Of a stretch of 32,000 bases of DNA, positions 12,153 through 32,000 are shown in pieces. Position 1 is the first letter of the stretch, and each line of letters begins with the position of its first letter. The notes beneath the pieces are model-generated. The model made no database searches, was not told the origin of the DNA, and was given only the letters and a program-made list of their open reading frames with translations. This DNA comes from Gemmata obscuriglobus (lineage in GTDB: Bacteria; Planctomycetota; Planctomycetia; Gemmatales; Gemmataceae), in assembly GCF_008065095.1 (NCBI RefSeq), contig NZ_CP042911.1:6840001-6872000 (forward strand). The letters are read 5' to 3'. The translations under genes were made by a program, and so were the position numbers.

Positions 12153-12743
12153 TCACGGTACCGGAGCGTCCGTGTCGGCCATCTCGGTCAGCAGCCAGGC
12201 GCGGGCGTACGCCCAGTAGGCGTCGGCCGTTCGCGGCGCGATGCCGAGGACGGCGGCGGCCTCCTTCAGCGTCAGCCCGCCGAAGTACCGTAGTTGCACC
12301 AGCTCCCCCACCTTCGGCTCGGCCGCGGTCAGGGCCGTCAGCGCCTCGTCGAGGGCGATCAGCTCGTCGGCCCGTTCCGGCTCGGCGATCTGGTCCGGGT
12401 CGAGCGGCACCCGCTGGCGCCCGCCCCCGCGCTTCGCCCGCTTCTTCCGGCGGGCCGACTCGATCAGGATTCGTCGCATGGCCGTGGACGCGGCCGTGAA
12501 GAAGCGCCCGCGGCTGTCCCCCGGCAGGTCGAGCGCCCCGGCCCCGACCGGCCGGTCGCCGAGCAGCCGGAGGTACGCCTCGTGGACCAGGGCGGTGGGT
12601 TGCAGCGTGTGCCCGACGGTCTCGTTGGCGAGGGCGCGGGCGGCGAGCCGCTTCAGGTCGTCGTAGACGAGGCAGAACAGGTCCTCGACCGCTCGGGCGT
12701 TGCCGCCGTTCGCGGCCGCGAGCAGTTCGGTGAACACGGGCAT
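12153..12743 (-). CDS. ECF-type RNA polymerase sigma factor (Sig-70_X6 / TIGR02999-like)
   Basis: FTELL...VYDDLKRLAARAL..HTLQPTALVHEAYLRL is the region 2 equivalent. A basic linker ARRKKRAKRGGG follows. Region 4 HTH is LRYFGGLTLKEAAAVLGIAPRTADAYWAYARAWL. The start is ATG 12743 or GTG 12755. The stop lies only a few nt upstream of the kinase ORF, indicating an operon. Confidence 0.85.
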   Translation of the reverse strand: MPVFTELLAAANGGNARAVEDLFCLVYDDLKRLAARALANETVGHTLQPTALVHEAYLRLLGDRPVGAGALDLPGDSRGRFFTAASTAMRRILIESARRKKRAKRGGGRQRVPLDPDQIAEPERADELIALDEALTALTAAEPKVGELVQLRYFGGLTLKEAAAVLGIAPRTADAYWAYARAWLLTEMADTDAPVP

Positions 12744-12893
12744 CGGAACCGTCACTCCGGATCGCGGGCCGGTCGGTGCCGACCGCGGGCGGTGCCGGCC
12801 GGCAGAGATTTGTCATTTTTCTATTGCGCGTTTCGGACCGCAGCGACGCCTGTGGGGGTGGCGCATCCCCCCAATACCGTCGGAGTCCGCTCG
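12744..12893. promoter_or_regulatory. Divergent intergenic region between the ECF sigma operon and the giant surface-protein gene
   Basis: It is ~150 bp and contains an A/T-rich patch (gatttgtcatttttctattgcg). GGAG at 12882-12885 lies 8 nt before ATG 12894. No promoter motif could be assigned with confidence. Confidence 0.35.
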
Positions 12894-21800: not shown

Positions 21801-22736
21801 ACCGCCACCGTCGCCGCGGCCAACGGCGCTCCGGTGACCGGAACCGTGACGTTCAAGGACGGGAGCACCGTGCTCGGCACCGCTCCGGTGGTGAACGGCA
21901 AGGCGGTACTGACCACCGACGCCTTCCAGTACGGCAACAAGACGATCACCGCGACGTTCGCCGGCGGCGGCAACTACGCGGTCCCGACCGCCACGGCCTC
22001 GGTGGGCGTGTCGGTGGTGCCGGCGGCGATCCTGCCGGACCCGGTAACCGGGCAGAACGCGCTGTTCGTTGGCGGCACCGCAGGCGATGACGAGATCGAG
22101 GTGCTGGGTATGAGCAACAACCGGTACGCGGTGGAGGTCGGAAGCGGGTGCTGGAAGTTGTTCGATCAGACGCTCACCGGGGTGGTCGCCCGGGTGGTGA
22201 TGTACGGCGGGGCCGGCAACGACGCGATCGTGGCGAACGGCAACGTTCGGGTGCCGGTGTTCGCGTTCGGCGGGGCCGGCAACGACATCCTGGTCGGGGC
22301 CGAGAACGCCCCGAACGTGCTGGTCGGCGGGGCCGGCAACGACCTGCTCTACGCCGGCTGCGCACGGGACATCCTGATCGGCGGGGCCGGATCGGACCTG
22401 CTCTTCGGGCGGGCCGGTGACGACATGCTGATCGGCGGCTCGACGGCGTTCGACGCCAACGAGTCGGCCCTGTGGGGCCTCCAGGCGGAGTGGAACTCGT
22501 CCCGGGACCTCGGCACCCGGGTGGCCAACCTGCGCGGCACCGGGACCGGCCCGCGAGCGAACGGTAACGCGTTCCTGGTGGCCGGCGGGCCGGCCGCGAC
22601 CGTGTTCAACGACGGGGCCGGTGACTTCCTGTACGGCAGCAGCGGGCGGGACTGGTACTTCGCCAACACCACCGGCGGCGGGGTGCTGGACGTGATCGCC
22701 GGGCTCCGTGGGGATGACCTGCTGACCGAGTTGTAA
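12894..22736 (+). CDS. Giant (3280 aa) modular secreted/surface protein: N-terminal LEDR motif, 5 beta-helix plus choice-of-anchor-Q-like modules, MBG(YGX) domains, 9 YDG domains, Ig-like domain, RTX Ca-binding repeats
   Basis: ATG 12894 is in frame with track ORF 12294-22736. The upstream 600 nt overlap the sigma gene in antisense and are discarded. Motifs seen: LEALEDRAVPA; repeated GADTITFAPGVAGGTIVLT..LTD..TIDGG..VTLDGN; GGGIYN.GTLTVSASTIANNSA beta-helix rungs; NGGPTQTIALLP.SPA..DQRG..R..DIGAYE; K.YGDADP...GD....TR..GE..G.Y (MBG); KVYDG..A (YDG); and GGAGNDxLx repeated 5 times near the C-terminus. Confidence 0.85.
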   Translation: MPVRSWVRKLFDRTPARPIVRPRSKLAVEALEDRAVPATFAVTSLLDNGSAGTLRWAVDQANGTAGADTITFAPGVAGGTIVLTGGQLALTDSAQTTIDGGATGVTLDGNNASRLVFVSPGASAALNRLTITRGRADNLDGGGIYNSGGTLAVSASTITNNSASFGGGISNFNGTLTVTASTVANNSATVGGGIYNSGSAAVTVSTVAKNYAGSAGGGIHNVGGAIAVSASTIANNAVRIGDGAFGGAGIYNSSGTATLASTILTDGTAGDNLSASSANNLLVGSGSVGGLSNGANGNVVVPTADAAGLDPVGLKDNGGPTLTIALLPTSPAIGAGPFAGGATVDQRGYGRPAAGNIDLGAYQTTAAPREADSLVVTTTADAVNAFDGVTSLREAVEYANARAGADTITFASGVAGGTIVLTGDQLTLTDAAQTTIDGGAAGVTLDGNNASRVLFVGTGASAALNHLTITRGRTLDGAGIYNQGTLTVSASTIANNNASFGGGISNYGTLTVTGSTVANNGSYHGGGIFNRASATVTASTIANNYADDSGGGISNVGGTIAFLSSTITNNAASRVSGGGGGGIYSSGATTTLTSTILTDELVGADLSASSANNLLVGSGSVGGLSSGANGNVVVPTVAAAGLDPAGLKDNGGPTQTIALLPGSPAVGGAATNAGATDQRGVARDARPDIGAYEFTDFRPSLVVTTLADEDDGTSDSRFGSGTSLREAVEYANAHPGADTITFAPGVAGGTIVLTRGQLALTDADQTTIDGGAAGVTLDGNRASLVLFVGTGASATLNHLTITRGWGDGSGGGIHNQGTLTVSASTIAGNRANYGAGGGIYNQGTLTVSASTIAGNWAIHGGGIYNRGTLTVSASAIAGNSAVLYGGVCNDGGVLTVSTSTINNNSADISYGGIYNSGSAAVTASTIANNSARDAGGIYNYGGTLTVSASTITNNAGGIQNSSGTVTLTSTILTDGYTGNDLSASSANNLLVGSGSVGGLSNGANGNVVVPTVAAAGLDPAGLKDNGGPTQTIALLPDSPAIGAGPFAGGETVDQRGYGRPAAGNIDLGAYQTTAAPREADSLVVTTTADAVNAFDGVTSLREAVAYANARAGADTITFAPGVAGGTIVLTRGQLALNDSAQTIIDGGAAGVTLDGNNASRVILVSYGATAALNHLTITRGRDDNYDGGGIYNQGTLTVSASTIANNSARVGGGISNYGTLTVTGSTVANNWGYHGGGIFNHVSATVTASTIANNYADDSGGGISNVGGTIAVSASTITNNTVRIGGGAAGGRGIYSSGATTTLTSTILTDGFVGYNGLSASSANNLLVGGGSVGGLSNGANGNVVVPTVAAAGLDPAGLKDNGGPTQTIALLPDSPAIGAGMAGAGATDQRGVARDTRPDIGAYEFVAYRPSLVVTTLADEDDGTSDPGFGSGTSLREAVAYANAHPGADTITFAPGVAGGTIVLSRGQLALTDADQTTIDGGAAWVTLDGNNASRVILVSYGATAALNHLTITRGRADNYDGGGGIYNQGTLTVTASTITNNSATVGGGISSIGSAAVTASTIANNSADNSGGISNYGTLTMSSSTVANNSANSFGGGISNYGTLTMSSSTVANNSANSIGGGIYNRGTLTVSASTIANNLSRYIGGGGIYSLGSILTMSASTVANNSVLSGKGGGIYLDSGILTVSASTIANNSANSGGGIYLDGGILTVSASTIANNSASNGGGIFNQGMANLPRTTLTSTILTDAFGGDDLSASSANNLLVGSGSVGGLSGGLNGNVVVPTAAAAGLDPAGLRDNGGPTQTIALLPTSPAIGAGGAGTTTTDQRGVARNANPDIGSFETQASTVGVTIAGGVYRGTAYTVTAATVAGTNGATLASFGSPALTYTYYAGALTAAQVAAATPLADAPINVGTYTVVATFTSDALGYRSAVSSPVSFTITPATAFVVVADSAYEYDGQAHGASLVQAVGVGGADLSGFVSLSTLFTDAPGGTATWTFDAGPNYVSASGSVSIIISPRGGAWVTDAAGKTYGDADAASLTTGAGSGFVEADGVTATYTRQAGENAGSYAITATLSSSRLTAAQLAANYSIINTGAVYTIGRRAASVSADALTKVYGDADPVLTGTLSGFLPGDGVAAAYTRAAGESVAGGPYAVTATLNPSAALANYDVTYTAGSLTVTPRVLTVTATASDKVYDGTTAASATLTLGNTVAGEVPTATFTSAVFGDKNAGTGKTVTVSGVALDPAFAANYTLSGVTTASAVASITAKAISGTFTAADKVYDGTRAATVLTRNLGGVIGQDAVALTGGTAAFADKNAGANKSVSLTGATLTGADAANYTLTGVADAAASIAQRALTVGATASDKVYDGGTAASATLTLGNAVAGEAPAATFTSAVFADKNAGVGKAVTVSGIALDPASASNYTLNGVTTASAVANITAKAISGAFTAADKVYDGTRAANVLTRNLGGVIGQDAVTLTGGTAAFADKNAGANKSVSLTGATLTGADAANYTLTGVADAAASIAQRALTVGATASDKVYDGGTAASATLTLGNAVAGEAPAATFTSAVFADKNAGVGKAVTVSGIALDPASAANYTLGGATTASAVANITAKAIGGAFTAADKVYDGGAVATVLSRSLGGVIGQDAVTLTGGIAAFADKNASAGKTVTLTGATLTGADAANYTLTGVADAAAAIDRRALTVSATASDKVYDGSTAASATLTLGNAVAGEAPAATFTSAAFGDKNAGTGKAVTVSGIDLDPASASNYTLNGVTTASAVANITAKAISGAFTAADKVYDGGAAATVLTRTLGGVIGQDAVTLTGGTAAFADKNAGANKSVSLTGAALTGADAANYTLTGVGATTAGVARRALTITATGTNKVFDGTTAAAVTLADNRVVGDQLASGYTSAAFADPNVGTGKSVTVTGISVTGADAGNYTFNTSATTTASITPAAVTIGLATDRPVAVPGLAVTFTATVAAANGAPVTGTVTFKDGSTVLGTAPVVNGKAVLTTDAFQYGNKTITATFAGGGNYAVPTATASVGVSVVPAAILPDPVTGQNALFVGGTAGDDEIEVLGMSNNRYAVEVGSGCWKLFDQTLTGVVARVVMYGGAGNDAIVANGNVRVPVFAFGGAGNDILVGAENAPNVLVGGAGNDLLYAGCARDILIGGAGSDLLFGRAGDDMLIGGSTAFDANESALWGLQAEWNSSRDLGTRVANLRGTGTGPRANGNAFLVAGGPAATVFNDGAGDFLYGSSGRDWYFANTTGGGVLDVIAGLRGDDLLTEL
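13005..18420 (+). repeat. Five ~1.0-1.3 kb coding modules arranged as an alternating ~2.1 kb super-repeat
   Basis: Module starts are at ~13005, 14004, 14985, 16127 and 17121. Junction types alternate between DLGAYQTTAAPREADSLVVTT and DIGAYEF..RPSLVVTT. 13935-14056 is identical to 16058-16179 (122 bp, offset 2123). Confidence 0.8.
14622..14632 (+). repeat. G11 homopolymer inside the giant gene (codes part of SGGGGGG)
   Basis: Read directly: c-ggggggggggg-c-ggggg-c at 14621-14639. A second G9 run lies at 18946-18954. Confidence 0.9.
19434..21485 (+). repeat. Four tandem 513-bp (171-aa, two YDG domains) coding repeats
   Basis: Unit starts are at 19434, 19947, 20460 and 20973, and the next, diverged unit starts at 21486, all spaced exactly 513 bp. 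19801-20095 is identical to 20314-20608 (295 bp, checked base by base). Confidence 0.9.
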
Positions 22737-22748
22737 CGGTCGGTCGGT

Positions 22749-22782
22749 GGCCGCCCCGGGGCGCATGTCTCCCCGGGCGGCC
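22749..22782 (+). terminator. GC-rich hairpin immediately after the giant gene stop (possible terminator, no U-tract)
   Basis: ggccgccccgggg - cgcatgtct - ccccgggcggcc forms a 12-bp stem with one bulge, 13 nt after TAA 22734-22736. It is followed by gccgcagcc rather than a T-run. Confidence 0.3.
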
Positions 22783-23189
22783 GCCGCAGCCGGGCCGCGA
22801 GTGCCGGGTCATTACCGGGCAGTCCGGTTGCACGTGATTCACCACGAAGCCGGAAGGGTGTGCTGCTGCGACACGGTGCGCACGGAACGGGTGCGTTCGC
22901 CCACAAGTGATGCGGGGCACGAGAGGCGCCGCAGGACGCTGAGTTATCGGTTTGACGGCGCGGCGGCTTGAAATGCTGCCGCATCACCTTCATTTCTTGC
23001 ACGACCCATGGAGAGCTTTACGTTTGACAAGGCGGCTTCGCCAACCGAACGACCTCCGCCTCATTTGTGCTCATCGGCCGGTGGGTGGCGCAGCCCGCGC
23101 CAGGGGAAGTTGATGCTCACTTATGAATAAATGAGCCGCATACATTTAAGATCTATCAAGCGGCGACGGCGCGATCCGTCCGCGTCCCA

Positions 23190-24023
23190 CTACTTCCTCG
23201 GTGACCGGTCGTGTTCGCGCAGTTCGGGCAACCGGTTCATCACCCAAGACAGTAGCGCGCCGTAAGCGCCTTCGTACTCGGCCAGCCGCGCGCCGAAATG
23301 CGCGGCGCGGGCGCCCGCCGCGGCGGTCACGCTCACCGCGCACTCGTCTTCGACGAACCGGAACACCCCCTTCAGATCGCCCGCGGTCTCCGTGGTGCGA
23401 ACGGTCGCGACCCACGACAGATAGCAGCGGTTCGGGTCGAGGCTCTCGAGATCCGGAATCAGCCCGAGGTCGGTCGAAACCTCGAGCAGTTCGCCGTGCT
23501 TGCCGAGGTTGCGCAGCAGCAGCAGCGGATCCATGCCGTCGGTCAGCAGCCGCGGCCCGGGCGTAATTGTCACGCGGTAGACGTGCGCCCCTTGGGGTCC
23601 CGGAGCAACCGCCGGCGGGCGTGCTTCTACCGCGCCCGAACCGCACCCGGCCGCCGTGTTGAGCGCAACAACGAGATCCGCGTCCGCCGAAGCGGGTTCG
23701 CCGGCTCGGGCCGCGGCGAACAGCCCGTGCAGCCCGTCCACCGCGCGCAACAGCAGGTCGATGCGATCGCGCGTGACCGGGAGCTGGCCCTTGCGCAACT
23801 TGTCGAGGAGCTGCTCCAGCGAGTGCGTGAGCCGGGTGATGGCCTCGAAGCCGAACACCCCGCTGCCGCCCTTGATCGAATGAGCCGCACGGAACACCGC
23901 GTTCAGCACCTCGGGGTCCGGGGCGCCGTCGCCGGCGCCCAGGAGCCCGGACTCGAGGGCCGCGAGGTGCTCGCCCGCCTCGTCCAGGAAGGTGTTCAGC
24001 AACTGGTCCATTTCGACTGGCAT
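23190..24023 (-). CDS. Hpt (CheA P1-like) phosphotransfer protein without a kinase core
   Basis: ATG at 24023, 277 aa. The P1 signature is LNAVFRAAHSIKGGSGVFG, with its His codon at 23880-23882. It is followed by HVYRVTITPGPRLLTDGMDPLLLLRNLGKHGEL...LDPNRCYLSW...VFRFVEDEC, a segment I recall seeing after P1 in some full-length CheA proteins. No P3 dimerisation, HATPase or P5 sequence follows. Confidence 0.8.
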   Translation of the reverse strand: MPVEMDQLLNTFLDEAGEHLAALESGLLGAGDGAPDPEVLNAVFRAAHSIKGGSGVFGFEAITRLTHSLEQLLDKLRKGQLPVTRDRIDLLLRAVDGLHGLFAAARAGEPASADADLVVALNTAAGCGSGAVEARPPAVAPGPQGAHVYRVTITPGPRLLTDGMDPLLLLRNLGKHGELLEVSTDLGLIPDLESLDPNRCYLSWVATVRTTETAGDLKGVFRFVEDECAVSVTAAAGARAAHFGARLAEYEGAYGALLSWVMNRLPELREHDRSPRK

Positions 24024-24034
24024 CGGTCCGCTCG

Positions 24035-24400
24035 CTAGGGGAGCAGGTCGGTAACGACCTGGACGAGTTGCGCGGCCTTGAACGGCTTCACGATCCACCC
24101 GGTCGCGCCCGCGGCCTTGCCCTGCTGCTTCATCTCGGTCTGGGACTCGGTGGTGAGCAGGATGATGGGGGTGGACTTTAACTGCGGCCGCGCGCGCGCC
24201 TGCTTGACGAACGTGATCCCGTCCATCACCGGCATGTTGACGTCGCTGATGATGACGTCCACGCGGGCGCCGGCGAGCTTGTCGAGGGCCTCCTGACCGT
24301 TGCAGGCCTCGATCACGGTGAACTTGGCGTCCGACAGGGCCATGGCGACCATTTGGCGGAACGTGAGCGAGTCGTCGACGATGAGAGCGGTTTTCGCCAC
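24035..24400 (-). CDS. cheY: CheY-like single-domain response regulator
   Basis: ALIVDDS, VIISDVNMPVMDG, ILLTT and IVKPF cover all REC acidic-pocket, T and K positions. The track start is TTG 24415. GTG 24400, preceded by GAGGA, is more likely. Confidence 0.85.
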   Translation of the reverse strand: MAKTALIVDDSLTFRQMVAMALSDAKFTVIEACNGQEALDKLAGARVDVIISDVNMPVMDGITFVKQARARPQLKSTPIILLTTESQTEMKQQGKAAGATGWIVKPFKAAQLVQVVTDLLP

Positions 24401-24411
24401 GAGAGTGGTCC

Positions 24412-25392
24412 TCAAAAGAATTCCATGGAACCCGGGGTGTCGTCACCCGCGGGGCCGGCGTCGTGCCCGGTGACGCGGTCCAGAACGCGCCGCTCGGACT
24501 GCATGGTGGCCCGCGCGCGGAGCCGGTCGAGGAGGGCCGCCGCGCCGGCCGCGTCCCCGGACGCGAGCACGGCTCGGGCCTCCCGTAGGGCCGCGGCGAC
24601 GTGGTCCAGTTGCTGGTTCACCGCGTCCTGGAACTGGAGCGCGGTCATCGCGTCCTCGATGTCCCCGGCCAGCCGCTCGGCGTCGGTCGCGGACGCGGCC
24701 ACCAGCGCCTGCATCTCGGCCTGGGACCGGGCGAGCGCGTCCAGCGCGCGGGCGCCCTCTTCGCGGCTGAGGTCGGCGGCCCGGTTCAGGTCGGCCGCGG
24801 TGTCGCTCTTGAGCAGCCCGGCCCGCATCCGCTGGGTGCTCTCGCGCACCTCCTGCCACAGCCCGTCCACCATCCCGCGGATCGACTTGGCCGTGGTGCC
24901 GATCGCTTCCGCCTGGCGCCCGGTCTCGGCGGCGACCACCGCGAACCCGCGCCCGGACTCGCCCGCGCGGGCGGCCTCGATGCGCGCGTTGAGGGCCAGG
25001 ATGCGCAGCGCGTACGAGACCCCGTCCAGGTCGCCGAGCGACCGCTCGATGCGGTCCACGCGGGTCGCGATGCCCTCGAGCCGGCGCAGCGTCTCGACCG
25101 CCTCGTCGGTGGCCCGGCGCACCTGGTCCATGCGGCCGAGCAGCGCCGTGATCGTGGACCGGGCGGCGGCCTGCGCGTCCGCGTCCGTGCCGCCGTCCTG
25201 CCCGGTCGCGCGGGCCGCGCGGGCCGCGCTCTCCTTCGACCGCCGCGCGATGCTCACGAAGCTGGTGCAGACCTGGGTCACCGCCTCTTCGACGTGCCGC
25301 GCCGTGTCCCCGATTTGGGTCGAAAGCGCTTCGAGCACCACCCCGATTTCGGGTGCTCCCGCGACGCCGGAACTGGTGCCTGCCTGAACCAT
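24412..25392 (-). CDS. Short soluble methyl-accepting-type signalling-domain protein (no TM, no HAMP)
   Basis: ATG at 25392 (MVQAGTSS...), 326 aa. The hairpin-tip signature is [26 protein letters not shown]. No hydrophobic segment is present. The track ORF extension to 25710 overlaps the STAS gene and is discarded. Confidence 0.75.
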   Translation of the reverse strand: MVQAGTSSGVAGAPEIGVVLEALSTQIGDTARHVEEAVTQVCTSFVSIARRSKESAARAARATGQDGGTDADAQAAARSTITALLGRMDQVRRATDEAVETLRRLEGIATRVDRIERSLGDLDGVSYALRILALNARIEAARAGESGRGFAVVAAETGRQAEAIGTTAKSIRGMVDGLWQEVRESTQRMRAGLLKSDTAADLNRAADLSREEGARALDALARSQAEMQALVAASATDAERLAGDIEDAMTALQFQDAVNQQLDHVAAALREARAVLASGDAAGAAALLDRLRARATMQSERRVLDRVTGHDAGPAGDDTPGSMEFF

Positions 25393-25421
25393 GTGCGTTC
25401 TGCCCGCGGCCGTTGGGCCGG

Positions 25422-25730
25422 TTACGAATCGAGGACCTCGCCGAGCCCGGCGCGGCGCAGGTGCGCGGCCGCCGCGTCCTGAACGCTTTCCATTGCGAAC
25501 GGTAGCCCGCGATCGCGACACGTGCGCCGTAACGCGATCAAAATCTGCACTGCCCCAGTGGGCAGGAACGGCGCGGCCGCGCAATCGACGGTCGCGCCGC
25601 GGCTCGCACGAACCGCCGCCCGCGCGGCGCTGAGCAGGTCGGCCAGTTCCGCCGGTTCGAGGTTCTCGTTCAGGGCGATGTGTGCGGGCCCGCCGCACCC
25701 GGCTTGGCACTCATCTGTTTTCTTCATCAC
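25422..25730 (-). CDS. STAS-domain (anti-sigma-antagonist-like) protein, first gene of the minus-strand che operon
   Basis: ~101 aa, with GTG at 25730 and ATG at 25727. The layout is LNENLEPAELADLLSAARAA....TVDCAAAPFLPTGAVQILIALRRTCRDRG..FAMESVQDAAAAHLRRAGL, which resembles STAS/SpoIIAA-like proteins. The call rests on pattern similarity only. Confidence 0.55.
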   Translation of the reverse strand: MMKKTDECQAGCGGPAHIALNENLEPAELADLLSAARAAVRASRGATVDCAAAPFLPTGAVQILIALRRTCRDRGLPFAMESVQDAAAAHLRRAGLGEVLDS

Positions 25731-26133
25731 GTCACCACGACCGGCCGGCGCGAGTCAGTTACGTTGACATCAAAACTGATAGCACCGTTGTGGGTCCCGG
25801 AGCGTGGGTGCAGAAATTAATTATGGACATAAACGGCAAGTTTTGTTGTGAGCACGTTTTTCATGCGGCTGTAACACGTTTCGCTGAGGCAAAACATGAA
25901 AAGTGCACAATTATTGACAATTTGAGAATAAGTTATCAATTTACCCTTCACCTCAAATTGCCAGGAAGTTTGGCGTTCTAGCTATTTCACATTAGCCGCA
26001 GCCAATTTCGCGGGCGGAAGAGCCACCAGCCGGACAAGCGACGGGGCGGCGCCAGCCCCACTTGCCCGGCCCTTTGTCAACCGCAACGGCCGCAACTGGC
26101 GCGGGTGGAGTTCTTCTCTCACCGGAGACGCAC
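25731..26133. promoter_or_regulatory. A/T-rich divergent control region between the two che operons
   Basis: G+C drops markedly across ~25760-26000. TTGACA hexamers lie at 25764 and 25914 without good -10 partners. GGAGA at 26123-26127 lies 6 nt upstream of ATG 26134. Confidence 0.4.
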
Positions 26134-28086
26134 ATGGCCCGACTCGCTCCCCAGCCCGGCTCGTCGAACAACGGTCACGTCAACGGCCACGCCAGCGGTC
26201 ACAACCGGTTCGCCGAGCCGGACGCCCTGCGCCAGCGCGAGAGCGCCCGCGACCGCGCCAAGGAGAAGGCCAGCGCCCGCACCGCGGCCAAGCGCCAGCA
26301 GGCGGCCGAGCGGATCGCCACCGCCACCGAGCAGCTCACCGGGGGCGTGACCGAGGCCAACGCCGCGGTCGCGCAGCTCGAGCGGCAGATGGAGCAGATC
26401 GCCAGCGGGGCGGTCGAGTCCTCGAAGGCGGCCGAGAGCAGCCTCGCGGCCATTGAGGAAATCAACGCGGCCAGCACCCAGGCGGTCGCCGCCGCACAAC
26501 AGTCGTTGCGGAAGGTGACGAACATCCAGGAACTGGTCCGGGGCGCCAGCGGCGACATCGACCTGCTGATCCAAGGGGTCGGCGCGTCCGCGCAGGCCAA
26601 CATGGAGTCGGCGAAGCTGGTCGGGCAGCTCGAGCAGCAGAGCAACGAGATCGGAACGATCGTGGAAGCGGTGGTGCGGATCGCCGACCAGACCAACCTG
26701 CTGGCGCTGAACGCGGCCATCGAGGCGGCCCGCGCCGGGCAGCACGGTAAGGGGTTCGCCGTGGTCGCCGACGAGGTCCGCAACCTCGCCGAGACGAGCG
26801 AGCGGTCGGCCCGCAACATCCGCGACCTGGTGGAGAAGATCCAGACCGACGTGAAGCTGGTGGTGGCGGACGTGGAGAAGGCCGGCAAGGCCGCGTCGGA
26901 CGAGGTGGAGAAGGCCAAGAAGGTGACCGCCGACCTGAAGCGCGTCGCGACCGACACCGCCGAAATCCAGAAGGCGTGCGCCTCCATCAATGACGCCGCG
27001 AAGGAAGCGGCCACCGGGGCCGAGCAGTTCCAGCAGGGCGCGCAGGCCGTGGCCAGCGCCTCGGAAGAGTCCAGCGCGGCGGCCGAGGAGGCCAGCAAGG
27101 CGGTGCGCGAGCAGGGCAAGGCGCTGGAGGAGATGGGCAAGGGCGCGGACGAGCTGAGCACCATGGCCGAGGACCTGAAGACCTCGACCAACTCGGAGAA
27201 GTCGTCCGAGGAACTGGCCGCCGCCTCCGAGGAGCTGTCGGCCACCATCCAAGAGGCGAACGCGGCCGCGACCCAGATCACGGCCGCGATCACACAGATC
27301 GCCAAGGGCGCCCAGACCCAGGCCGCGGCCACGACGCAGTCGAGCACCGCGGCGAAGCAGATCGAGGCCGCGGCCCGCGCGATGCAGCACAAGGCCACCG
27401 ACTCGGTGGAGCGGGCCGACACGCTCATGAACTTGCTCACAGAAAACAAGGCCGGCGTCGAGGCCATGATCCGCGGGATCAACCACGCCGCCGAGGCGTC
27501 GATCAAGTCGGCCACCAACATCAAGGCGCTCGAGGAGCGCACCCGGATGATCGACAAGATCGTGGACGCGATCGTCAACGTCACCATCCAGACCAACCTG
27601 CTGGCGGTGAACGGCGGGATCGAGGCCGCGCGGGCCGGCGAGTACGGGCGCGGGTTCGCGGTGGTCGCGGCCGACGTCCGCAACCTGGCGGGCGAGTCCA
27701 GCGAGAACGCCGACAAGATCAAGGACCTGGTGCGCAACATCCAGAAGCAGATCGTCACCGTGGCCAGCGACATTGAGGCGTCCGGAAAGGAGGCGGCGGC
27801 CGAGGTGCTCAAGGCGAAGAAGACGACCGCCGACCTGGAGCGCATCTCCACCGACTTCGACGAAGTGCGGCGCGGGGTGATCGAGGTGAAGACCGGGCAG
27901 GACCAGGCGCTCCTGGCCATCCAGACGGCGGCCGCGGCGGTGCAGCAGATCGCGCGGGCCGCGCAGGAGGCGAGCGAGGTGTCCATACAGGCGGCGGCCG
28001 CGGCGCAGCAGGGCGCGAAGGGGATGCACGAGCTGGCGGCCGCGGTCGAGGAGATCTCGGCCCTGGCGGACGAGCTGCAGAACTAA
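26134..28086 (+). CDS. Soluble chemoreceptor with two complete MCP signalling (MA) domains (DosM-like)
   Basis: ATG 26134 follows GGAGA; 650 aa. There are two hairpin tips, [32 protein letters not shown] (tip codons from 26719) and [32 protein letters not shown] (from 27619), exactly 900 nt apart. The whole protein is Ala/Glu/Gln-rich coiled coil with no hydrophobic segment. Confidence 0.85.
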
Positions 28087-28110
28087 CCCACACCGCGAAG
28101 GAGCCAACAC

Positions 28111-29970
28111 ATGTCGGACAACACTCCCGCCGGCGCCGGGGGCGGCGGCGACCACGAGCTGGTCACCTGCGTGCTGGGCGGGGTCGAGTTCGGGATCGAC
28201 ATCAACGCGGTGCAGGAGATCGTGCGGCTGCCCAAGATCACGCCGGTGCCCCGCGCGCCGAGTTACGTCGAGGGCGTCGCGAACCTCCGCGGCAACGTGC
28301 TCCCCATCGTGAACTCGCGCGCCCGGTTCGGGATGCCCGGGGCCGGGAACGGGGACAGCAACCGCGTCGTGGTGGTCGAGCTGAACGGGGCCCCCACGGG
28401 GCTGATCGTGGACGCGGTCCGCGAGGTCATGCGGGTCAAGCGGGCGGACGTGGAAGACGCGCCGGCCGCGGTGCAGAGCGTGGACGGCCGGTTCCTCCGC
28501 GGCGTCGTCAAGCTGAACGGCGGGCAGCGGCTCGTCCTGCTGCTGGACCACAGCGCGATCATGGAGGCGGCCCGGCCCGCGGGGCGGCCGGGCGCCGCCG
28601 GGCCGACGCCCGGCGGCGACCCGGCCGCGTCCGGGGCCGCGCTCCGTGCCGCCCCCCCGACCCCGGAGCACGAGCACCTGGTCACGTTCCGCATCGGCGA
28701 GGAGGAGTACGGCGTCCCGATCATGGACGTGCAGGAGATCATCCGCGTCCCGAACATCAGCACGATCCCGAACGCCCCGGCCGGGGTGGTCGGGATCGCC
28801 AGCCTGCGGAACCGCATCCTCCCGGTGCTCGACCTGCGCACCAAGTTCGAGTTCCGCCCGCGGAAAGCGGAACTCGAGGAGTTCTGCGACAAGGTGCGGG
28901 CCTTCGAGCGGCTCTACACCGCGGCCGTCGAGCGGCTCCAGGCCGCGGTCGCGGGCCGCGGCGCGTTCGACCGCGCGCTGCTCCGCGGGCACCGCGACTT
29001 CTGCCGCTGGCAGGCCGGGTTCGCGAGCGGCGACCGGCTGCTGCACGCGCTCCTGGCCCCCCTCCGCGACGCGTTCGACGCGGGCGCGGCCGGGAAGCGG
29101 GCCGTCGCGGCCCACCTCGACGCCCGGAACTTCGCCGCGGCCCAACAGGAGTTCGACGGCCCGTTCCAGGTCGCGCACGCCCGGCTGCTGGCCGCGTTCG
29201 AGAAGCTGTACACCGGGGTCACCAGGCGGGACGACGAGCGGTGCCTCGTGGCCACCGTGAACGGCGCGGCCCTCGCCCTGCGGGTGGACGCGGTGAACCA
29301 AGTGCTTCAGGCGCCACGCGGCACGATCGAGCCGACGCCGGCGCTCGTGGCGGGGCGCGAGCAGCTCCGCGGGATCGCCAAGCTGGACGGCGGCAAGCGG
29401 CTCATCATGCTGCTCGCCGCGGACAAACTCGTTTCCCACGCGGAGCTGAGCGCCGTGACCAACCTGACCGACCGCAGCGAGGGCGCGGGCCGCGGGCCGG
29501 GCGCCGGGGGCGAGTCCGACGAGCGGCAGCTGGTGACGTTCAAGGTCGCCGGCGAGGAGTTCGCGGTGGACATCATGCAGGTGCAGGAGATCATCCGGCT
29601 GGGCAAGGTGACCAAGGTGCCGCACCTCCCCGATTTCGTCGAGGGGGTGGTGAACCTGCGCGGGCAGGTGCTGCCCGTCATCGACCTGCGGCGCCGGGTG
29701 CACCTGGCCCGCAAGGACTACTCGGACGCGACCCGCGTGGTCGTCGTGGACCTGCGGGGCACGAAGACCGGGATCATCGTGGACGCGGTGTCCGAGGTGA
29801 TGCGGGTCCGCGGCCGGGACATCGAGCCGGCCCCGCCCATCATCCGCAGCCGGTACGGGGATCACATCATCGAGGGCGTCGGCAAGCTCAACAAGGGGGA
29901 CCGGATGTTCCTGCTGTTGCGCGCCGACGAGTTGCTCAAGGTCGAGAGCGTGCCGGCCGCGTCGGCGTAA
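28111..29970 (+). CDS. cheW: Triple-CheW-domain scaffold protein, with the second CheW domain split by a ~125-aa helical insert
   Basis: AAGGAG lies 7 nt upstream of ATG 28111. Three CheW signatures are present: LVTCVLGGVEFGIDINAVQEIVRLPKITPVPRAP..VEGVANLRGNVLPIV; LVTFRIGEEEYGVPIMDVQEIIRVPNISTIPNAP..VGIASLRNRILPVLDL; and LVTFKVAGEEFAVDIMQVQEIIRLGKVTKVPHLP..VEGVVNLRGQVLPVIDL. Domain 2 resumes (CLVATVNGAALALRVDAVNQV) only after the insert at ~28855-29235. Confidence 0.85.
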   Translation: MSDNTPAGAGGGGDHELVTCVLGGVEFGIDINAVQEIVRLPKITPVPRAPSYVEGVANLRGNVLPIVNSRARFGMPGAGNGDSNRVVVVELNGAPTGLIVDAVREVMRVKRADVEDAPAAVQSVDGRFLRGVVKLNGGQRLVLLLDHSAIMEAARPAGRPGAAGPTPGGDPAASGAALRAAPPTPEHEHLVTFRIGEEEYGVPIMDVQEIIRVPNISTIPNAPAGVVGIASLRNRILPVLDLRTKFEFRPRKAELEEFCDKVRAFERLYTAAVERLQAAVAGRGAFDRALLRGHRDFCRWQAGFASGDRLLHALLAPLRDAFDAGAAGKRAVAAHLDARNFAAAQQEFDGPFQVAHARLLAAFEKLYTGVTRRDDERCLVATVNGAALALRVDAVNQVLQAPRGTIEPTPALVAGREQLRGIAKLDGGKRLIMLLAADKLVSHAELSAVTNLTDRSEGAGRGPGAGGESDERQLVTFKVAGEEFAVDIMQVQEIIRLGKVTKVPHLPDFVEGVVNLRGQVLPVIDLRRRVHLARKDYSDATRVVVVDLRGTKTGIIVDAVSEVMRVRGRDIEPAPPIIRSRYGDHIIEGVGKLNKGDRMFLLLRADELLKVESVPAASA

Positions 29971-30027
29971 CTCCGTCGCGGGCCGGGCCCGGCCCGCCCT
30001 ACCACCGATCCCAGACAGGCGCAACCC

Positions 30028-31128
30028 ATGCCACTGCCCCGCGCGACTCGCCCGATCCGCGTCGTCCTGGCGGACGACTCCGCGCTCATGCGCAAGAAGC
30101 TCCGCGAGATCCTCGAGTCCGACCCGGCTCTTGAAGTGGTCGCCAGCGCGCGCGACGGCGCCGCCGCGGTCGACGCGGTGCGCGCGTTCGATCCGGACGT
30201 GGTCACGCTCGACATCAACATGCCGGTCATGGACGGCGTGACCGCGCTCCAGACGATCATGAACGAGCTCCCGCGCCCGGTGCTCATGATCAGCTCGCTG
30301 ACGCAAGAGGGGGCGCTGGCGACCTACGAGTGCCTCGAGCTGGGCGCGGTGGACGTCGTGCCCAAACTCGGGGGGACCATTTCCGCAGAAATCGAGCGCC
30401 AGAGCCGCGAGATCATCGCGAAGGTAAAGGCCGCCGCCGGCGCGCGGGTGCGGCGGTCCGGGGCGAAGCGGCTCGCCCCCCAACCCCCGCCCCCGAAGCC
30501 CGCCCCCGCCCCGCCCGCGCGCGCCGGGGGGGCCGGGGCGCACGCGGATCGGGTCGTCGCCATCGGCGTCTCGACCGGCGGACCGAAGACGCTCCAGGAG
30601 GTGGTGCCGCTGCTCCCGCCGGACCTGCCCGCGGCGGTGGTGATCGTCCAGCACATGCCCGAGACGTTCACCGCGTCGTTCGCCCGGAGCCTCGGCCGCA
30701 ACAGCCAGATGCCGGTGAAGGAGGCCGAGGCCGGTGACACCCTCCGGAACGGCCACGTCTACGTGGCCCGCGGCGGGAAGCACCTGATCTTCGCCGACCG
30801 GCGGCCGGCGAACGGGGTGATGGTGCGGTACGTCAGCCAGCCGGCGGACGCGCTACACATCCCTTCGGTGGACGTGATGATGCACTCGGCGGTCGACGTG
30901 TTCCGCTCGCAGGTCGTCGGCGTCCTGCTCACCGGGATGGGGAGCGACGGGGCCGACGGGATGGTGGCGATCCGCCGCGCGGGGGGCGAGACCATTGCCG
31001 AGGACGAGAGCACCTGTGTCGTGTTCGGGATGCCGGCCGTGGCGGCCGCGAAGGGGGGCGCGGCCCACGTGCTGCCGTGCCACGAGGTGGCCGCGAAAGT
31101 CGTGTCGTTGTTGCGCCGCAGCCGCTGA
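30028..31128 (+). CDS. cheB: Chemotaxis response regulator protein-glutamate methylesterase
   Basis: The REC domain has VVLADDS and VVTLDINMPVMDG. A Pro-rich linker follows. The methylesterase catalytic motifs are GVSTGGP, VQHMP and GMGSDG. Confidence 0.9.
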   Translation: MPLPRATRPIRVVLADDSALMRKKLREILESDPALEVVASARDGAAAVDAVRAFDPDVVTLDINMPVMDGVTALQTIMNELPRPVLMISSLTQEGALATYECLELGAVDVVPKLGGTISAEIERQSREIIAKVKAAAGARVRRSGAKRLAPQPPPPKPAPAPPARAGGAGAHADRVVAIGVSTGGPKTLQEVVPLLPPDLPAAVVIVQHMPETFTASFARSLGRNSQMPVKEAEAGDTLRNGHVYVARGGKHLIFADRRPANGVMVRYVSQPADALHIPSVDVMMHSAVDVFRSQVVGVLLTGMGSDGADGMVAIRRAGGETIAEDESTCVVFGMPAVAAAKGGAAHVLPCHEVAAKVVSLLRRSR

Positions 31129-31140
31129 CTTGGAAAATCA

Positions 31141-32000
31141 ATGGACCTTCCGCCGGAAGAGTTCGCCCTGATCCGCGACCTGATCTACGCCCGCACCGGG
31201 CTGATGTTCGAGGACAAAAAGCGCTTGTTCCTGGCGCCCCGCGTGTCGCGCCGGGTGCGGGCCGCCCGGTGCAGCGGCCCGCGCGACTACTACCACCTGC
31301 TCCGGTACAGCGACCCCGACGGGCGCGAGTTCCAGGAGCTGGTGGACGAGGTGACCACCAACGAGACGTACTTCTTCCGCGACTACCCGCAGCTCGAGTT
31401 CTTCGCCAACGAGGTGCTGCCGCGGGTCGCGGACGCCAAGCGCGCCGCCCGCGACCACAGCCTGAACGTCTGGAGCGCGTGCTGCTCGACCGGCGACGAG
31501 CCGTACACGCTGGCCATCATTCTGGCCGCGTGCCTGGACGACTTCTCCCGGTGGGATGTCAAACTGGTGGGCACCGACATCGACACCAAGGTGCTCGCGA
31601 CCGCCCGCGCCGCGGTGTACGGCGAGCGGAACGTGAAGGACGTGGACCCGTCCTACCTCGGCAGGTACTTCGTCCCGACGCGCGGCGGGTACCGGGTCGC
31701 GGACCCGATCCGCCGGATGGTCGCGTTCGAGCGGGTGAACCTCGTGGACGACGACCGCATGAGCCGGCAGCGCGGGTTCGATTTTATCTTCTGCCGGAAC
31801 GCGCTCATTTACTTCGACGACGCCTCCCGGAAGCGGGTGCTGGCGTCGTTCCACGACGCCCTGCGGCCGGGCGGGTTCGTGTTCCTCGGCCACTCGGAAT
31901 CGGTGGGCCGGATCTCGCGGGCGTTCGAGCCGGTGCAGTTCGGCCCCGGCGGGGTGGCGTACCGCAAGCCCGGCGGGCACCGGCTCGCGGCGGCCCCCAC
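31141..32000 (+). CDS. cheR: Chemotaxis protein methyltransferase CheR (3' end beyond the window)
   Basis: This ORF is not in the supplied track because it has no stop in the window. My own translation from ATG 31141 reads MDLPPEEFALIRDLIYARTGLMFEDKKRLFL...TTNETYFFRD...NVWSACCSTGDEPYTLAI...FIFCRNALIYFD...GGFVFLGHSES. The frame is open to the last base. Confidence 0.85.
   Translation, partial: MDLPPEEFALIRDLIYARTGLMFEDKKRLFLAPRVSRRVRAARCSGPRDYYHLLRYSDPDGREFQELVDEVTTNETYFFRDYPQLEFFANEVLPRVADAKRAARDHSLNVWSACCSTGDEPYTLAIILAACLDDFSRWDVKLVGTDIDTKVLATARAAVYGERNVKDVDPSYLGRYFVPTRGGYRVADPIRRMVAFERVNLVDDDRMSRQRGFDFIFCRNALIYFDDASRKRVLASFHDALRPGGFVFLGHSESVGRISRAFEPVQFGPGGVAYRKPGGHRLAAAP

What the first reader, a model, noticed from the sequence alone, without database searches (positions are those of the whole stretch)
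23190..32000. Chemosensory locus built entirely from soluble parts: two divergent operons with no transmembrane receptor and no CheA kinase core in view
The minus operon runs STAS protein, short soluble MCP, CheY, Hpt-only CheA fragment. The plus operon runs double-signalling-domain soluble receptor, 3xCheW polypeptide, CheB, CheR. They share one A/T-rich control region. Neither receptor has a TM, periplasmic or HAMP segment. The scaffold is covalently triplicated, and the phosphotransfer domain is physically uncoupled from any P3-P4-P5 core. Individual elements have precedents in cytoplasmic chemoreceptor arrays: V. cholerae cluster I DosM, and the R. sphaeroides CheA3/CheA4 split kinase with soluble Tlps. 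I am not aware of a described system that combines DosM-like, 3xCheW, Hpt-only and STAS components, and none in a planctomycete-like background.
Basis: partly seen in the sequence, partly recalled or inferred. Interest (0 to 1): 0.8.

Follow-up and report, generated by a model that had tools for sequence, protein, structure and literature searches.

The report
Gemmata F9 chemosensory cluster, CheA included
This is a known type of cytoplasmic chemosensory gene cluster (class F9, as in Vibrio cholerae cluster I) in Gemmata obscuriglobus; its "missing" kinase gene lies 55 bases past the window edge, and the only unusual part is a family-specific accessory operon with a kinase-less phosphotransfer protein.

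Summary
All eight domain calls hold, both receptors lack hydrophobic segments, and the A/T-rich divergent control region is real. "No CheA kinase core" is a window-edge artefact.

A tandem-signalling-domain receptor (DosM) plus a triple CheW (CheW3) are the published signature of the F9 class. The order DosM-CheW3-CheB-CheR-CheA matches published F9 orders and recurs in Planctomycetota, Desulfobacterota and Comamonadaceae loci.

The divergent operon (STAS, sensorless soluble MCP, CheY, 277-aa Hpt protein) was found only in five Gemmataceae-type loci. The Hpt protein is a CheA P1 domain, a ferredoxin-like domain in the P2 position and a lineage-specific helical tail. Its nearest counterparts lie in a Gemmatimonadetes cluster ordered STAS-CheY-CheA…soluble MCP. 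It therefore looks like the front end of a second Che pathway, without kinase core, attached to an F9 system.

I infer, without test, that F9 CheA phosphorylates the free P1 in trans to feed or drain CheY. Verdict: a new variant of a known kind, of modest interest.

The parts
23190..24023 (-). Stand-alone phosphotransfer protein of 277 aa: CheA-type P1/Hpt (about 1-125, His48 in HSIKG), a ferredoxin-like domain in the P2 position (147-234), and a Gemmataceae-specific C-terminal helical hairpin (243-273). It has no P3, P4 or P5.
   Evidence: Pfam finds Hpt. It is 100% identical to P0001 from G. obscuriglobus. See alignment A1. The AF2 model has pLDDT 86. The best Foldseek match is E. coli CheA P1-P2, 2lp4_A, followed by P1-only structures. 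The middle domain alone gives only generic ferredoxin-like matches. His48 is present.
24035..24415 (-). CheY-type single-domain response regulator (126 aa) with DD14-15, an IISDVNMP Asp and a TT motif.
   Evidence: Pfam Response_reg scores 97.7 bits and NCBIfam gives CheY. Active-site motifs are present. It is 69-87% identical in L067, L068 and L004. It is 62% identical to the REC next to STAS in L063, but only 38-45% to the CheYs of other F9 loci.
24412..25392 (-). Sensorless soluble MCP (326 aa): a bare signalling hairpin with its tip near residue 145 and a conserved C-terminal hydrophobic-E-[LF]-F motif.
   Evidence: Pfam MCPsignal. The KD maximum is 1.04. Tip position. It is co-linear with T. 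maritima TM1143 (2ch7), query 15-273 against chain 20-281. The C-terminal motif is conserved in L067, L068, L004 and in the L063 soluble MCP. It has no strict methylation-consensus site.
25422..25730 (-). STAS-only protein (102 aa), CheS-like by its context, with a conserved Thr in FLPT.
   Evidence: Pfam STAS_2 30.0 bits and STAS 22.9 bits, both just above cut-off. Orthologues are found in L004, L007, L067 and L068. It is 43% identical over 53 aa to the L063 STAS that heads a STAS-CheY-CheA cluster. See the sequence comparison.
25731..26061 (.). Shared A/T-rich divergent control region (331 nt, or 403 nt if DosM starts at 26134).
   Evidence: GC is 50.5% against 69.6% for the window, with a core (25881-25980) at 34-40% GC. 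It is one of only two such low-GC stretches in the window. There is one sigma-70-like match on the minus strand at 25939-25910, which is a consensus match only.
26062..28086 (+). DosM-type receptor: a tandem duplication of a signalling hairpin of about 300 aa (tips near 226 and 526), with no TM, HAMP or sensor domain. The probable true start is ATG 26134.
   Evidence: Pfam MCPsignal in 2 stretches, 223 bits. The two halves are 37% identical over 300 aa. The KD maximum is 1.17. It is 77-88% identical in Gemmataceae and 45-55% in Desulfobacterota and Comamonadaceae at conserved length. It has 4 methylation-consensus-like sites.
28111..29970 (+). CheW3: three concatenated CheW domains (about 14-160, 191-256 + 391-447, and 472-620 in ORF numbering). 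The middle domain is split by a helical-looking insert of about 130 aa.
   Evidence: Pfam CheW 344.6 bits and NCBIfam CheW in 3 stretches. The insert has no Pfam hit.
30028..31128 (+). CheB methylesterase with an N-terminal receiver domain (366 aa).
   Evidence: Pfam CheB_methylest 211.5 bits plus Response_reg. NCBIfam CheB scores 404 bits, above its cut-off.
31141..32000 (+). CheR methyltransferase, cut by the window end (the full gene ends at window-equivalent 32004; 287 aa). The operon continues beyond the window with a full-length cheA at window-equivalent 32060-34447.
   Evidence: Pfam CheR_N + CheR. L001 is identical to the window over 5,312 nt. The genes on L001 are listed. CheA has Hpt, H-kinase_dim, HATPase_c and CheW domains.

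Best explanation
The locus is a class F9 chemosensory system of Gemmata obscuriglobus, the same kind as V. cholerae cluster I.

Shown:
- The plus-strand operon dosM-cheW3-cheB-cheR-cheA is complete. It includes a catalytically equipped full-length CheA just outside the window.
- A divergent four-gene operon (STAS, sensorless soluble MCP, CheY, and a kinase-less P1 plus P2-slot protein) is attached to it in all five Gemmataceae-type loci examined: G. obscuriglobus, Gemmata sp. G18, G. algarum, one Gemmatales MAG and one unclassified metagenome contig.
- The closest counterparts of those four genes sit together in a different Che cluster, ordered STAS-CheY-CheA ... soluble MCP.

Inferred from published work on V. 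cholerae F9: DosM spans two CheA/CheW3 baseplates and scaffolds a double-layered cytoplasmic array. That array needs a second soluble receptor to complete its trimers of dimers. The co-regulated short MCP is the obvious candidate.

Inferred, not tested: the accessory operon is the captured front end of a second pathway that has no kinase core. The F9 CheA P4 domain phosphorylates the free P1 (His48) in trans, alongside its own P1 (His187). The free P1 passes phosphate to, or takes it back from, the operon's CheY. The P2-slot domain and the CheS-like STAS protein set CheY binding and specificity. In G. obscuriglobus and G. algarum the F9-internal cheY is absent, so this CheY is the only single-domain receiver in the locus.

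The cellular output is unknown.
For: Complete F9 core:
- Contig L001 is identical to the window and carries cheA 55 nt after cheR. CheA has His187 and the N, G1 and G2 boxes.
- PMC9321776 states that DosM (tandem signalling domains) and CheW3 are architectures unique to F9. It gives the consensus order MWB...RYA and lists orders such as [DosMW3BRA.YX].
- PMC7534058 reports VC1397 CheA, VC1402 triple CheW and VC1403 DosM forming a double-layered cytoplasmic array. DosM occupies every other trimer, so another cytoplasmic receptor is required.
- The DosM-W3-B-R-(Y)-A order is conserved in loci from three phyla.

Accessory operon:
- It is conserved and intact in L004, L007 (partial), L067 and L068 at 41-87% identity, against 67-81% for the core genes.
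- It is absent upstream of dosM in the non-Gemmataceae planctomycete loci L005, L010 and L014, which have 600-1470 nt of upstream sequence.
- The middle domain is absent from the F9 CheAs of the other fetched loci, but present in a second CheA in L011 and at the N-terminus of many proteins of 650-1000 aa.
- L063 has the order STAS-REC-[Hpt-mid/P3-P5]-MCP-CheW-CheR:CheD-sMCP-CheB. Identities to the window proteins are CheY 62%, Hpt 41%, STAS 43% and sMCP 30%. The soluble MCPs share the C-terminal hydrophobic-E-[LF]-F motif.
- An Hpt-STAS fusion protein exists (P0037).

Precedents:
- Trans-phosphorylation of a separate P1: R. sphaeroides CheA3/CheA4 (PMC3591291).
- A STAS protein modulating the CheA-CheY interaction: S. 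meliloti CheS, as summarised in PMC12654446.
Against: - No experiment or co-evolution analysis links the free P1 to the F9 CheA. That CheA has its own P1, so it does not need a trans substrate.
- The free P1 protein has no P5/CheW-like domain to dock it on an array.
- The middle domain has no Pfam P2 hit. Modelled alone, it matches only generic ferredoxin-like folds, with no solved CheA P2 in the top 50. CheY docking is therefore inferred from its position alone.
- The STAS Pfam scores are barely above cut-off, and homology to S. meliloti CheS itself was not tested.
- The short MCP's heptad class was not formally assigned, and it has no strict methylation-consensus site.
- In Gemmata sp. G18 and in L068 a PAS-HisKA-HATPase-REC hybrid kinase follows the Hpt gene and could be an alternative partner.
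- F9 membership rests on signature architectures and gene order, not on CheA phylogeny.
Confidence: 0.75

Rival explanations
1. One reading: a kinase-less, all-soluble chemosensory locus. Its Hpt protein is physically uncoupled from any P3-P5 core and must be served by a remote P1-less kinase core, as in CheA3/CheA4.
For: Inside the 32-kb window there is no HATPase_c or H-kinase_dim domain, and no P3-P5 remnant. The Hpt protein does lack P3-P5.
Against: A full-length CheA with its own P1, P3, P4 and P5 starts 55 nt after cheR on the identical contig. The same CheA position is conserved in every related locus that extends far enough. The partner kinase is therefore neither remote nor P1-less.
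Confidence: 0.03
2. The divergent operon is a separate pathway that merely sits next to the F9 operon. Its P1 protein would be phosphorylated by a different kinase, such as another CheA elsewhere in the genome or the hybrid PAS histidine kinase that follows it in some relatives. Its MCP would not enter the F9 array.
For: The four proteins are closest to a non-F9-type cluster. The middle domain is not found in the F9 CheAs I fetched. A PAS-HisKA-HATPase-REC kinase lies just downstream of the Hpt gene in L067 and L068. F9 usually coexists with other classes (PMC9321776).
Against: The divergent pairing with dosM across one A/T-rich region is conserved in all five Gemmataceae-type loci. The hybrid kinase is not adjacent in G. 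obscuriglobus, where 453 non-coding nt and an unrelated giant gene follow. G. obscuriglobus and G. algarum lack any other cheY in the locus. F9 arrays need a second soluble receptor.
Confidence: 0.17
3. The divergent operon is a decaying, functionless remnant of a second che cluster that lost its kinase core.
For: It lacks P3-P5, CheW, CheR and CheB of its own. STAS, the short MCP and the Hpt protein are somewhat less conserved than the core genes, at 41-66% against 67-81%.
Against: All four ORFs are intact with tight spacing in five independent genomes or contigs. The phospho-accepting His48, the CheY active-site residues, the STAS FLPT Thr and the MCP C-terminal motif are all conserved. The Gemmataceae proteins have also gained a conserved C-terminal helical hairpin.
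Confidence: 0.05

Closest known systems
Class F9 chemosensory system (V. cholerae cluster I: DosM VC1403, CheW3 VC1402, CheB, CheR, CheA VC1397)
   Same: It has a tandem-signalling-domain receptor without TM or sensor, a concatenated triple CheW, and CheB, CheR and a full-length CheA in one operon. The order DosM-W3-B-R-A matches the published [DosMW3BRA.YX] type. All parts are cytoplasmic.
   Different: It is in Planctomycetota (Gemmataceae), a phylum absent from the published table of 72 F9 species. G. obscuriglobus has no cheY between cheR and cheA. The CheA has a His-less N-terminal extension of 146 aa. The CheW3 middle domain carries an insert of about 130 aa. A divergent STAS-sMCP-CheY-P1 operon takes the place of the terminal '.YM' or '.YX' genes.
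R. sphaeroides split kinase CheA3 (P1+P5) / CheA4 (P3-P5) in the cytoplasmic cluster
   Same: A CheA-type P1 domain sits on a polypeptide without dimerisation or catalytic domains, in a cytoplasmic-receptor system. CheA3 P1 is among the structural matches (3kyi and 3kyj). It provides the precedent for trans-phosphorylation (PMC3591291).
   Different: Here the kinase keeps its own P1, so the system is not obligatorily split. The free P1 protein has no P5 domain and instead carries a ferredoxin-like P2-slot domain.
CheS-CheY1-CheA module of alpha-proteobacterial che operons (S. meliloti and A. fabrum: icpA-cheS-cheY1-cheA...)
   Same: A small STAS-only protein, a CheY and a CheA N-terminus are encoded together with a soluble MCP. 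CheS is reported to bind CheA and tune CheY discrimination (PMC12654446). The same STAS-REC-CheA head occurs in L063, the closest non-Gemmataceae relative.
   Different: In Gemmataceae the CheA of this module stops after the P2-slot domain, and the gene order is STAS-MCP-CheY-P1. Direct homology to S. meliloti CheS was not tested.
Partial-F9 hybrids (Nitratiruptor, Nautilia and others: dosM-cheW3-cheBR borrowing the CheA/CheY of another class)
   Same: Components of F9 and of another chemosensory class are proposed to work together (PMC9321776).
   Different: Here the polarity is reversed. The F9 set is complete, and the other class is the partial one, having lost its kinase core.

Membership tests
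F9 chemosensory class | DosM: a receptor with two MCP signalling domains in tandem, no TM segment and usually no sensor domain | tested here: met
   MCPsignal in 2 stretches. Tips lie near residues 226 and 526, and the halves are 37% identical. The KD maximum is 1.17, and no other Pfam domain is found.
F9 chemosensory class | CheW3: three concatenated CheW domains in one polypeptide | tested here: met
   Pfam CheW 344.6 bits. Three domains are mapped, with the middle one split by an insert.
F9 chemosensory class | Gene order M-W-B...R-(Y)-A with a full-length CheA in the cluster | tested here: met
   The order is DosM-W3-B-R-A, with CheA 55 nt after cheR. It matches [DosMW3BRA.YX] in S6 Table of PMC9321776. 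The same order is seen in 15 or more related loci.
F9 chemosensory class | Cognate receptors of heptad class 44H | tested here: inconclusive
   DosM arms are about 146-154 residues, roughly 22 heptads. The short MCP is co-linear with TM1143 (44H from my recollection) over 259 residues, but its N-arm is only 144 residues. No class HMMs were available.
F9 chemosensory class | CheA/CheB/CheR phylogenetic placement in the F9 clade (the criterion of Wuichet & Zhulin 2010) | not tested
F9 chemosensory class | Double-layered, purely cytoplasmic array that depends on DosM | not testable with these tools
   This requires cryo-ET of Gemmata cells and mutants.
Split CheA (CheA3/CheA4 type) | The P1 domain is on a polypeptide lacking P3 and P4 | tested here: met
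   The 277-aa protein has Hpt only. It has no H-kinase_dim or HATPase_c domain, and there is no remnant downstream.
Split CheA (CheA3/CheA4 type) | The partner kinase core lacks P1, so the two proteins are mutually dependent | tested here: not met
   The adjacent CheA has its own Hpt at 147-243 with His187 in HSIKG.
Split CheA (CheA3/CheA4 type) | The P1-bearing protein carries P5 for array docking | tested here: not met
   The 277-aa protein has no CheW-like domain. Its C-terminus is a short helical hairpin.
CheA P2 (CheY-binding) domain, Pfam PF07194/PF09078 | Sequence match to the P2 profiles | tested here: not met
   There is no Pfam hit for residues 136-277 even at E <= 10. Only distant full-length relatives (P0032, P0039, P0029) carry PF07194 or PF09078 annotations.
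CheA P2 (CheY-binding) domain, Pfam PF07194/PF09078 | Fold match to solved P2 structures | tested here: inconclusive
   The whole protein aligns best to the E. coli P1-P2 chain 2lp4_A (249 columns, E 6e-9). The domain alone (pLDDT 88) returns only generic ferredoxin-like folds (S6, PII-like, HPPK) at E >= 9e-4, with no P2 entry in the top 50.
CheA P2 (CheY-binding) domain, Pfam PF07194/PF09078 | Position between P1 and P3 in full-length CheA | tested here: met
   In P0015, P0019, L011 (717 aa) and L063 the same domain is followed by the P3 dimerisation motif. It lies at residues 1 to about 240 of many proteins of 650-1000 aa.
CheS (STAS-only chemotaxis accessory protein) | A small STAS-only protein encoded beside cheY and a CheA N-terminus | tested here: met
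   STAS_2 and STAS hits in a 102-aa protein. The context is shown, and the equivalent STAS-REC-CheA head in L063.
CheS (STAS-only chemotaxis accessory protein) | Sequence homology to S. meliloti/A. fabrum CheS and binding to CheA | not tested
   No CheS sequence was available to compare. NCBIfam gives no hit. Binding requires an experiment.

The most novel reading that the evidence does not exclude
In Gemmataceae, an F9 cytoplasmic array has captured the front end of a second chemosensory pathway. The captured parts are a CheS-like STAS protein, a sensorless soluble MCP with a C-terminal tether motif, a CheY, and a kinase-less P1 plus P2-slot protein. The F9 CheA would then drive two P1 domains, one in cis and one in trans. 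This would create a branched relay or phosphate sink with split-kinase-like ultrasensitivity. In G. obscuriglobus and G. algarum, which have lost the F9-internal CheY, this branch would be the only CheY output. The linked short MCP would also be the long-sought partner receptor that completes DosM-based arrays.
Probability: 0.3. Interest if true: 0.55.

Novelty: new variant of a known kind. Interest (0 to 1): 0.33.

Why it matters
The function, inputs and output of F9 systems remain unknown even in V. cholerae. It is also unclear there which second soluble receptor completes the DosM array (PMC7534058).

The Gemmataceae locus genetically links a candidate partner receptor, a CheY and a free P1 protein to the F9 core through one shared control region. 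That offers a compact, testable version of these questions in an organism with a motile swarmer stage.

It also extends F9 to Planctomycetota. It would be an example of class hybridisation in the opposite direction to the published partial-F9 hybrids.

The headline claim, a chemosensory system without a kinase, is not real.

Tried and rejected
- Unassigned segments. Pfam at E <= 10 found nothing useful for the CheW3 insert, the Hpt protein's residues 136-277 or the CheA N-terminal 146 aa. NCBIfam gave no name for STAS.
- P2 assignment. I expected the middle domain to be a canonical P2. A dedicated model and Foldseek search returned only generic ferredoxin-like folds, so I call it a P2-slot domain and not P2.
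- Stand-alone homologue P0017. The Gemmatimonadetes protein looked like independent support for kinase-less P1 proteins. It is a frameshift in the P2-P3 linker of a full-length CheA, and its C-terminal tail is out-of-frame sequence.
- Short entries in the representative search. Many hits of 220-420 aa could be fragments. Cluster look-up gave almost no organism names, so I make no claim about how widespread true stand-alone forms are outside Gemmataceae.
- Kinase-core remnant. I searched the whole window for P3-P5 remnants and found none. Positions 22737-23189 are non-coding.
- Methylation sites. A strict methylation-consensus scan found none in the short MCP and four in DosM. This is a regex match only.
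- Papers not held. The primary papers Dogra 2012 (PMC3294773) and Briegel 2016 (PMC5027440) were unavailable, so their content is cited through reviews.
- Letter 'S' in some published F9 gene orders, for example [DosMW4B.RYSYA]. It is not defined in the text I could read, so I did not use it as evidence for STAS in F9.
- Genome-wide inventory.

Full report
**1. What is in the window**

Minus strand:
- An Hpt protein, correctly 23190-24023 and 277 aa.
- CheY at 24035-24415.
- A 326-aa protein containing only MCPsignal at 24412-25392.
- A 102-aa STAS protein at 25422-25730.

Plus strand:
- A 674-aa receptor with two MCPsignal stretches at 26062-28086.
- A 619-aa CheW-repeat protein at 28111-29970.
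- CheB at 30028-31128.
- CheR from 31141, running to the window end.

None of these proteins has a 19-residue hydrophobicity maximum above 1.51, and neither receptor has HAMP or a sensor domain. The 331-nt spacer between the operons has 50.5% GC against 69.6% for the window, with a core at 34-40% GC. The gene spacings within each operon are -4 to 57 nt.

**2. What lies just outside the window**

An exact-protein look-up of the CheW-repeat protein returned contig L001, which is 100% identical to the window over all 5,312 shared bases. On it cheR ends at window-equivalent 32004. A 795-aa gene starts 55 nt later, at window-equivalent 32060-34447.

Pfam finds Hpt (147-243), H-kinase_dim (381-445), HATPase_c (492-632) and CheW (638-766) in that protein. 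The phospho-accepting His (HSIKG, His187) and the N, G1 and G2 boxes are present.

This is a canonical full-length CheA with its own P1, immediately downstream of cheR. "No kinase core in view" is an artefact of where the window ends.

**3. Which known system this is**

Mo et al. 2022 (PMC9321776) state that F9 components have architectures unique to the class. [quoted passage not shown] Their S6 Table lists orders such as [DosMW3BRA.YX].

The V. cholerae review (PMC7534058) describes cluster I/F9 as a purely cytoplasmic, double-layered array. [quoted passage not shown] DosM occupies every other trimer, so at least one more cytoplasmic receptor is needed.

The Gemmata plus-strand operon, DosM-CheW3-CheB-CheR-CheA, fits this description. 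Its DosM is an internal duplication of a hairpin of about 300 aa, with tips near residues 226 and 526 and halves 37% identical. Its CheW protein has three CheW domains.

A genome-collection scan with CheW3, followed by tblastn mapping, shows the same DosM-W3-B-R-(Y)-A order in several groups:
- Other Planctomycetota: Gemmatales, Planctomycetaceae and Pirellulaceae MAGs, and G. algarum.
- Desulfobacterota.
- Comamonadaceae. There the full order DosM-W3-B-.-R-Y-A-.-Y-M equals the order published for V. cholerae.

DosM together with 3xCheW is therefore the definition of a described class, not a new combination.

I did not test CheA phylogeny or heptad-class HMMs. Membership rests on the signature architectures and gene order.

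**4. Organism and novelty of the host**

The Hpt protein is 100% identical to a Gemmata obscuriglobus protein on a 9.03-Mb contig. The published table of 72 F9-bearing species covers 11 phyla or classes and contains no Planctomycetes. Full-text searches found no description of Gemmata or planctomycete F9 systems. The core is therefore a new member of a known class.

**5. The divergent accessory operon**

This is the part that is not standard F9.

*Distribution.* It is present, intact and in the same divergent position in four further loci at 41-87% protein identity:
- Gemmata sp. G18 (L067).
- A metagenomic relative (L068).
- A Gemmatales MAG (L004).
- G. algarum (L007), as far as the contig reaches.

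No trace of it is seen upstream of dosM in the non-Gemmataceae planctomycete loci L005, L010 and L014.

*Structure of the Hpt protein.* It has three parts:
- A CheA-type P1 with invariant His48.
- A conserved alpha/beta domain at residues 147-234, with the order beta-alpha-beta-beta-alpha-beta.
- A short helical hairpin found only in the Gemmataceae proteins.

*Relatives of the Hpt protein.* The best PDB match for the whole model is the E. coli CheA P1-P2 chain 2lp4_A. P1-only structures follow, including R. sphaeroides CheA3 P1. In longer relatives the middle domain is followed directly by the P3 dimerisation motif, so it occupies the P2 slot. The P1-plus-middle module heads many proteins of 650-1000 aa, with 356 representative clusters at E <= 1e-30.

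*Limits of the P2 assignment.* The domain has no Pfam P2 hit. Modelled alone (pLDDT 88), it matches only generic ferredoxin-like folds and no solved P2. I therefore treat CheY docking as an inference from position, not as a demonstrated property.

**6. Where the accessory operon came from**

An HMM of the middle domain finds it in none of the F9 CheAs of the other loci. It does occur in a second, non-F9 CheA in L011.

The closest non-Gemmataceae homologue, P0017, lies in a Gemmatimonadetes MAG cluster (L063) with this order: STAS, REC, [Hpt-mid | P3-P4-P5], MCP(4HB, HAMP), CheW, CheR:CheD, a 337-aa soluble MCP, CheB.

The apparent split of that CheA is a frameshift in the linker.

All four Gemmata accessory proteins have their counterparts in L063:

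| Protein | Identity to the L063 counterpart |
|---|---|
| CheY | 62% (against 38-45% to CheYs of other F9 loci) |
| Hpt protein | 41% |
| STAS | 43% over 53 aa |
| Soluble MCP | 30% over 264 aa |

The soluble MCPs also share a C-terminal hydrophobic-E-[LF]-F motif after a flexible tail. An Hpt-STAS fusion protein exists in metagenomes (P0037).

The STAS-CheY-CheA head with a soluble MCP recalls the alpha-proteobacterial icpA-cheS-cheY1-cheA arrangement (gene order from my own knowledge). There the STAS-only CheS binds CheA and sharpens its discrimination between CheYs (PMC12654446).

My reading is that Gemmataceae attached the front end of such a pathway, without its kinase core, to an F9 system. 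No P3-P5 remnant survives in the window.

**7. How it most likely works**

*Shown.* The F9 gene set is complete and includes a competent CheA. The accessory operon is conserved and co-located across one control region. Its P1 His, the CheY active-site residues and a STAS Thr at the SpoIIAA-like position (my comparison) are all conserved.

*Inferred from published F9 work.* DosM and CheW3 build a double-layered cytoplasmic array. The co-regulated short MCP is a bare hairpin roughly the length of one DosM half and co-linear with T. maritima TM1143. It is the natural candidate for the second receptor that such arrays need.

*Inferred without test.* The F9 CheA phosphorylates the free P1 in trans, as CheA4 does for CheA3 in R. 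sphaeroides (PMC3591291). The free P1 then exchanges phosphate with the operon's CheY, with STAS and the P2-slot domain tuning that step.

In G18, L068 and L004 the F9 operon still has its own cheY between cheR and cheA, together with a HEAT-repeat gene in G18 and L068. That CheY is only about 40% identical to the accessory CheY. G. obscuriglobus and G. algarum lack it, which leaves the accessory CheY as the only single-domain receiver in the locus.

*Caveats.*
- The kinase has its own P1, so nothing forces trans-phosphorylation.
- The free P1 protein has no P5 domain to dock it on an array.
- A hybrid PAS kinase follows the Hpt gene in G18 and L068 and could be an alternative donor.

The output of F9 systems is unknown.

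**8. Verdict**

The parts are real, but the absence of a kinase is not.

The claims of a kinase-less architecture and of a novel DosM plus 3xCheW combination fail.

The locus is an F9 system in a new phylum with a lineage-specific hybrid accessory module, which makes it a new variant of a known kind and of modest interest.

Noticed in passing
window about 28860-29260 (CheW3 residues about 250-383): The middle CheW domain of CheW3 is split at profile position about 78-89 by an insert with no Pfam match. The insert is about 130 aa in G. obscuriglobus, L004, L005, L006, L014, L067 and L068. It is about 45-55 aa in the Desulfobacterota loci. It is absent in G. algarum (L007), L008, L010 and Comamonadaceae. 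It is a lineage-variable addition to the array baseplate protein.
   Followed up: partly
window 24412-24429 (C-terminus of the short MCP); also L067, L068, L004, L063: The soluble MCP ends in a conserved hydrophobic-E-[LF]-F-COOH motif (SMEFF, SFELF, AIELF, SIELF, TVELF) after a Gly/Ala/Pro/Ser-rich tail. It recalls the NWETF-type CheR/CheB tether but does not fit the x[FWY]xx[FWY] consensus as I remember it. The same receptor has no strict methylation-consensus site, whereas DosM has four.
   Followed up: partly
L001 5372-5809 (window-equivalent 32060-32497): The F9 CheA has an N-terminal extension of 146 aa before its P1. The extension is Ala/Leu/Asp-rich, contains no His and has no Pfam hit. 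In the planctomycete loci L010 and L014 an extra Hpt-like segment precedes the main P1, so the extension may be a degenerate first Hpt.
   Followed up: partly
L067 11309-13924 and 16628-17542; L068 11197-13884: In Gemmata sp. G18 and in the metagenomic relative, a PAS-HisKA-HATPase-REC hybrid kinase follows the Hpt gene. G18 also has a SpoIIE/PP2C phosphatase about 6 kb downstream, which could be a STAS partner-switching component. Neither gene is adjacent in G. obscuriglobus.
   Followed up: no
window 12294-22736 (+): A giant 3,480-aa ORF encodes long tandem repeat modules (beta-helix-like GGGI/NNSA repeats, then repeated 'KVYDG...ANYTL' modules). It is followed by Asp/Gly-rich repeats that look like calcium-binding motifs. 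The periodic 83-86-aa antisense ORFs at 19901-21178 are by-products of these repeats.
   Followed up: no
window 46-2700 (-): An 884-aa protein fuses a Na+/H+ exchanger membrane domain with TrkA-N, CBS and PTS EIIA-2 domains. This is an unusually heavily regulated antiporter architecture.
   Followed up: no
window about 7073-7528: This is the only other strongly A/T-rich stretch in the window, with a 331-nt GC minimum of 46% at about 7200. It also lies between divergently oriented ORFs. Low-GC divergent promoters may therefore be a general feature of this genome.
   Followed up: no
L004 2714-4234: In the Gemmatales MAG the DosM match starts only at query residue 225 and abuts the STAS gene. This is probably a MAG assembly deletion and not a single-domain DosM.
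   Followed up: no
L063 10001-12078: The CheA of the Gemmatimonadetes MAG is called as two overlapping genes because of a frameshift in the P2-P3 linker. The 'stand-alone Hpt' entry P0017 therefore has an out-of-frame C-terminal tail. This is a caution for counting split CheAs from MAG annotations.
   Followed up: yes
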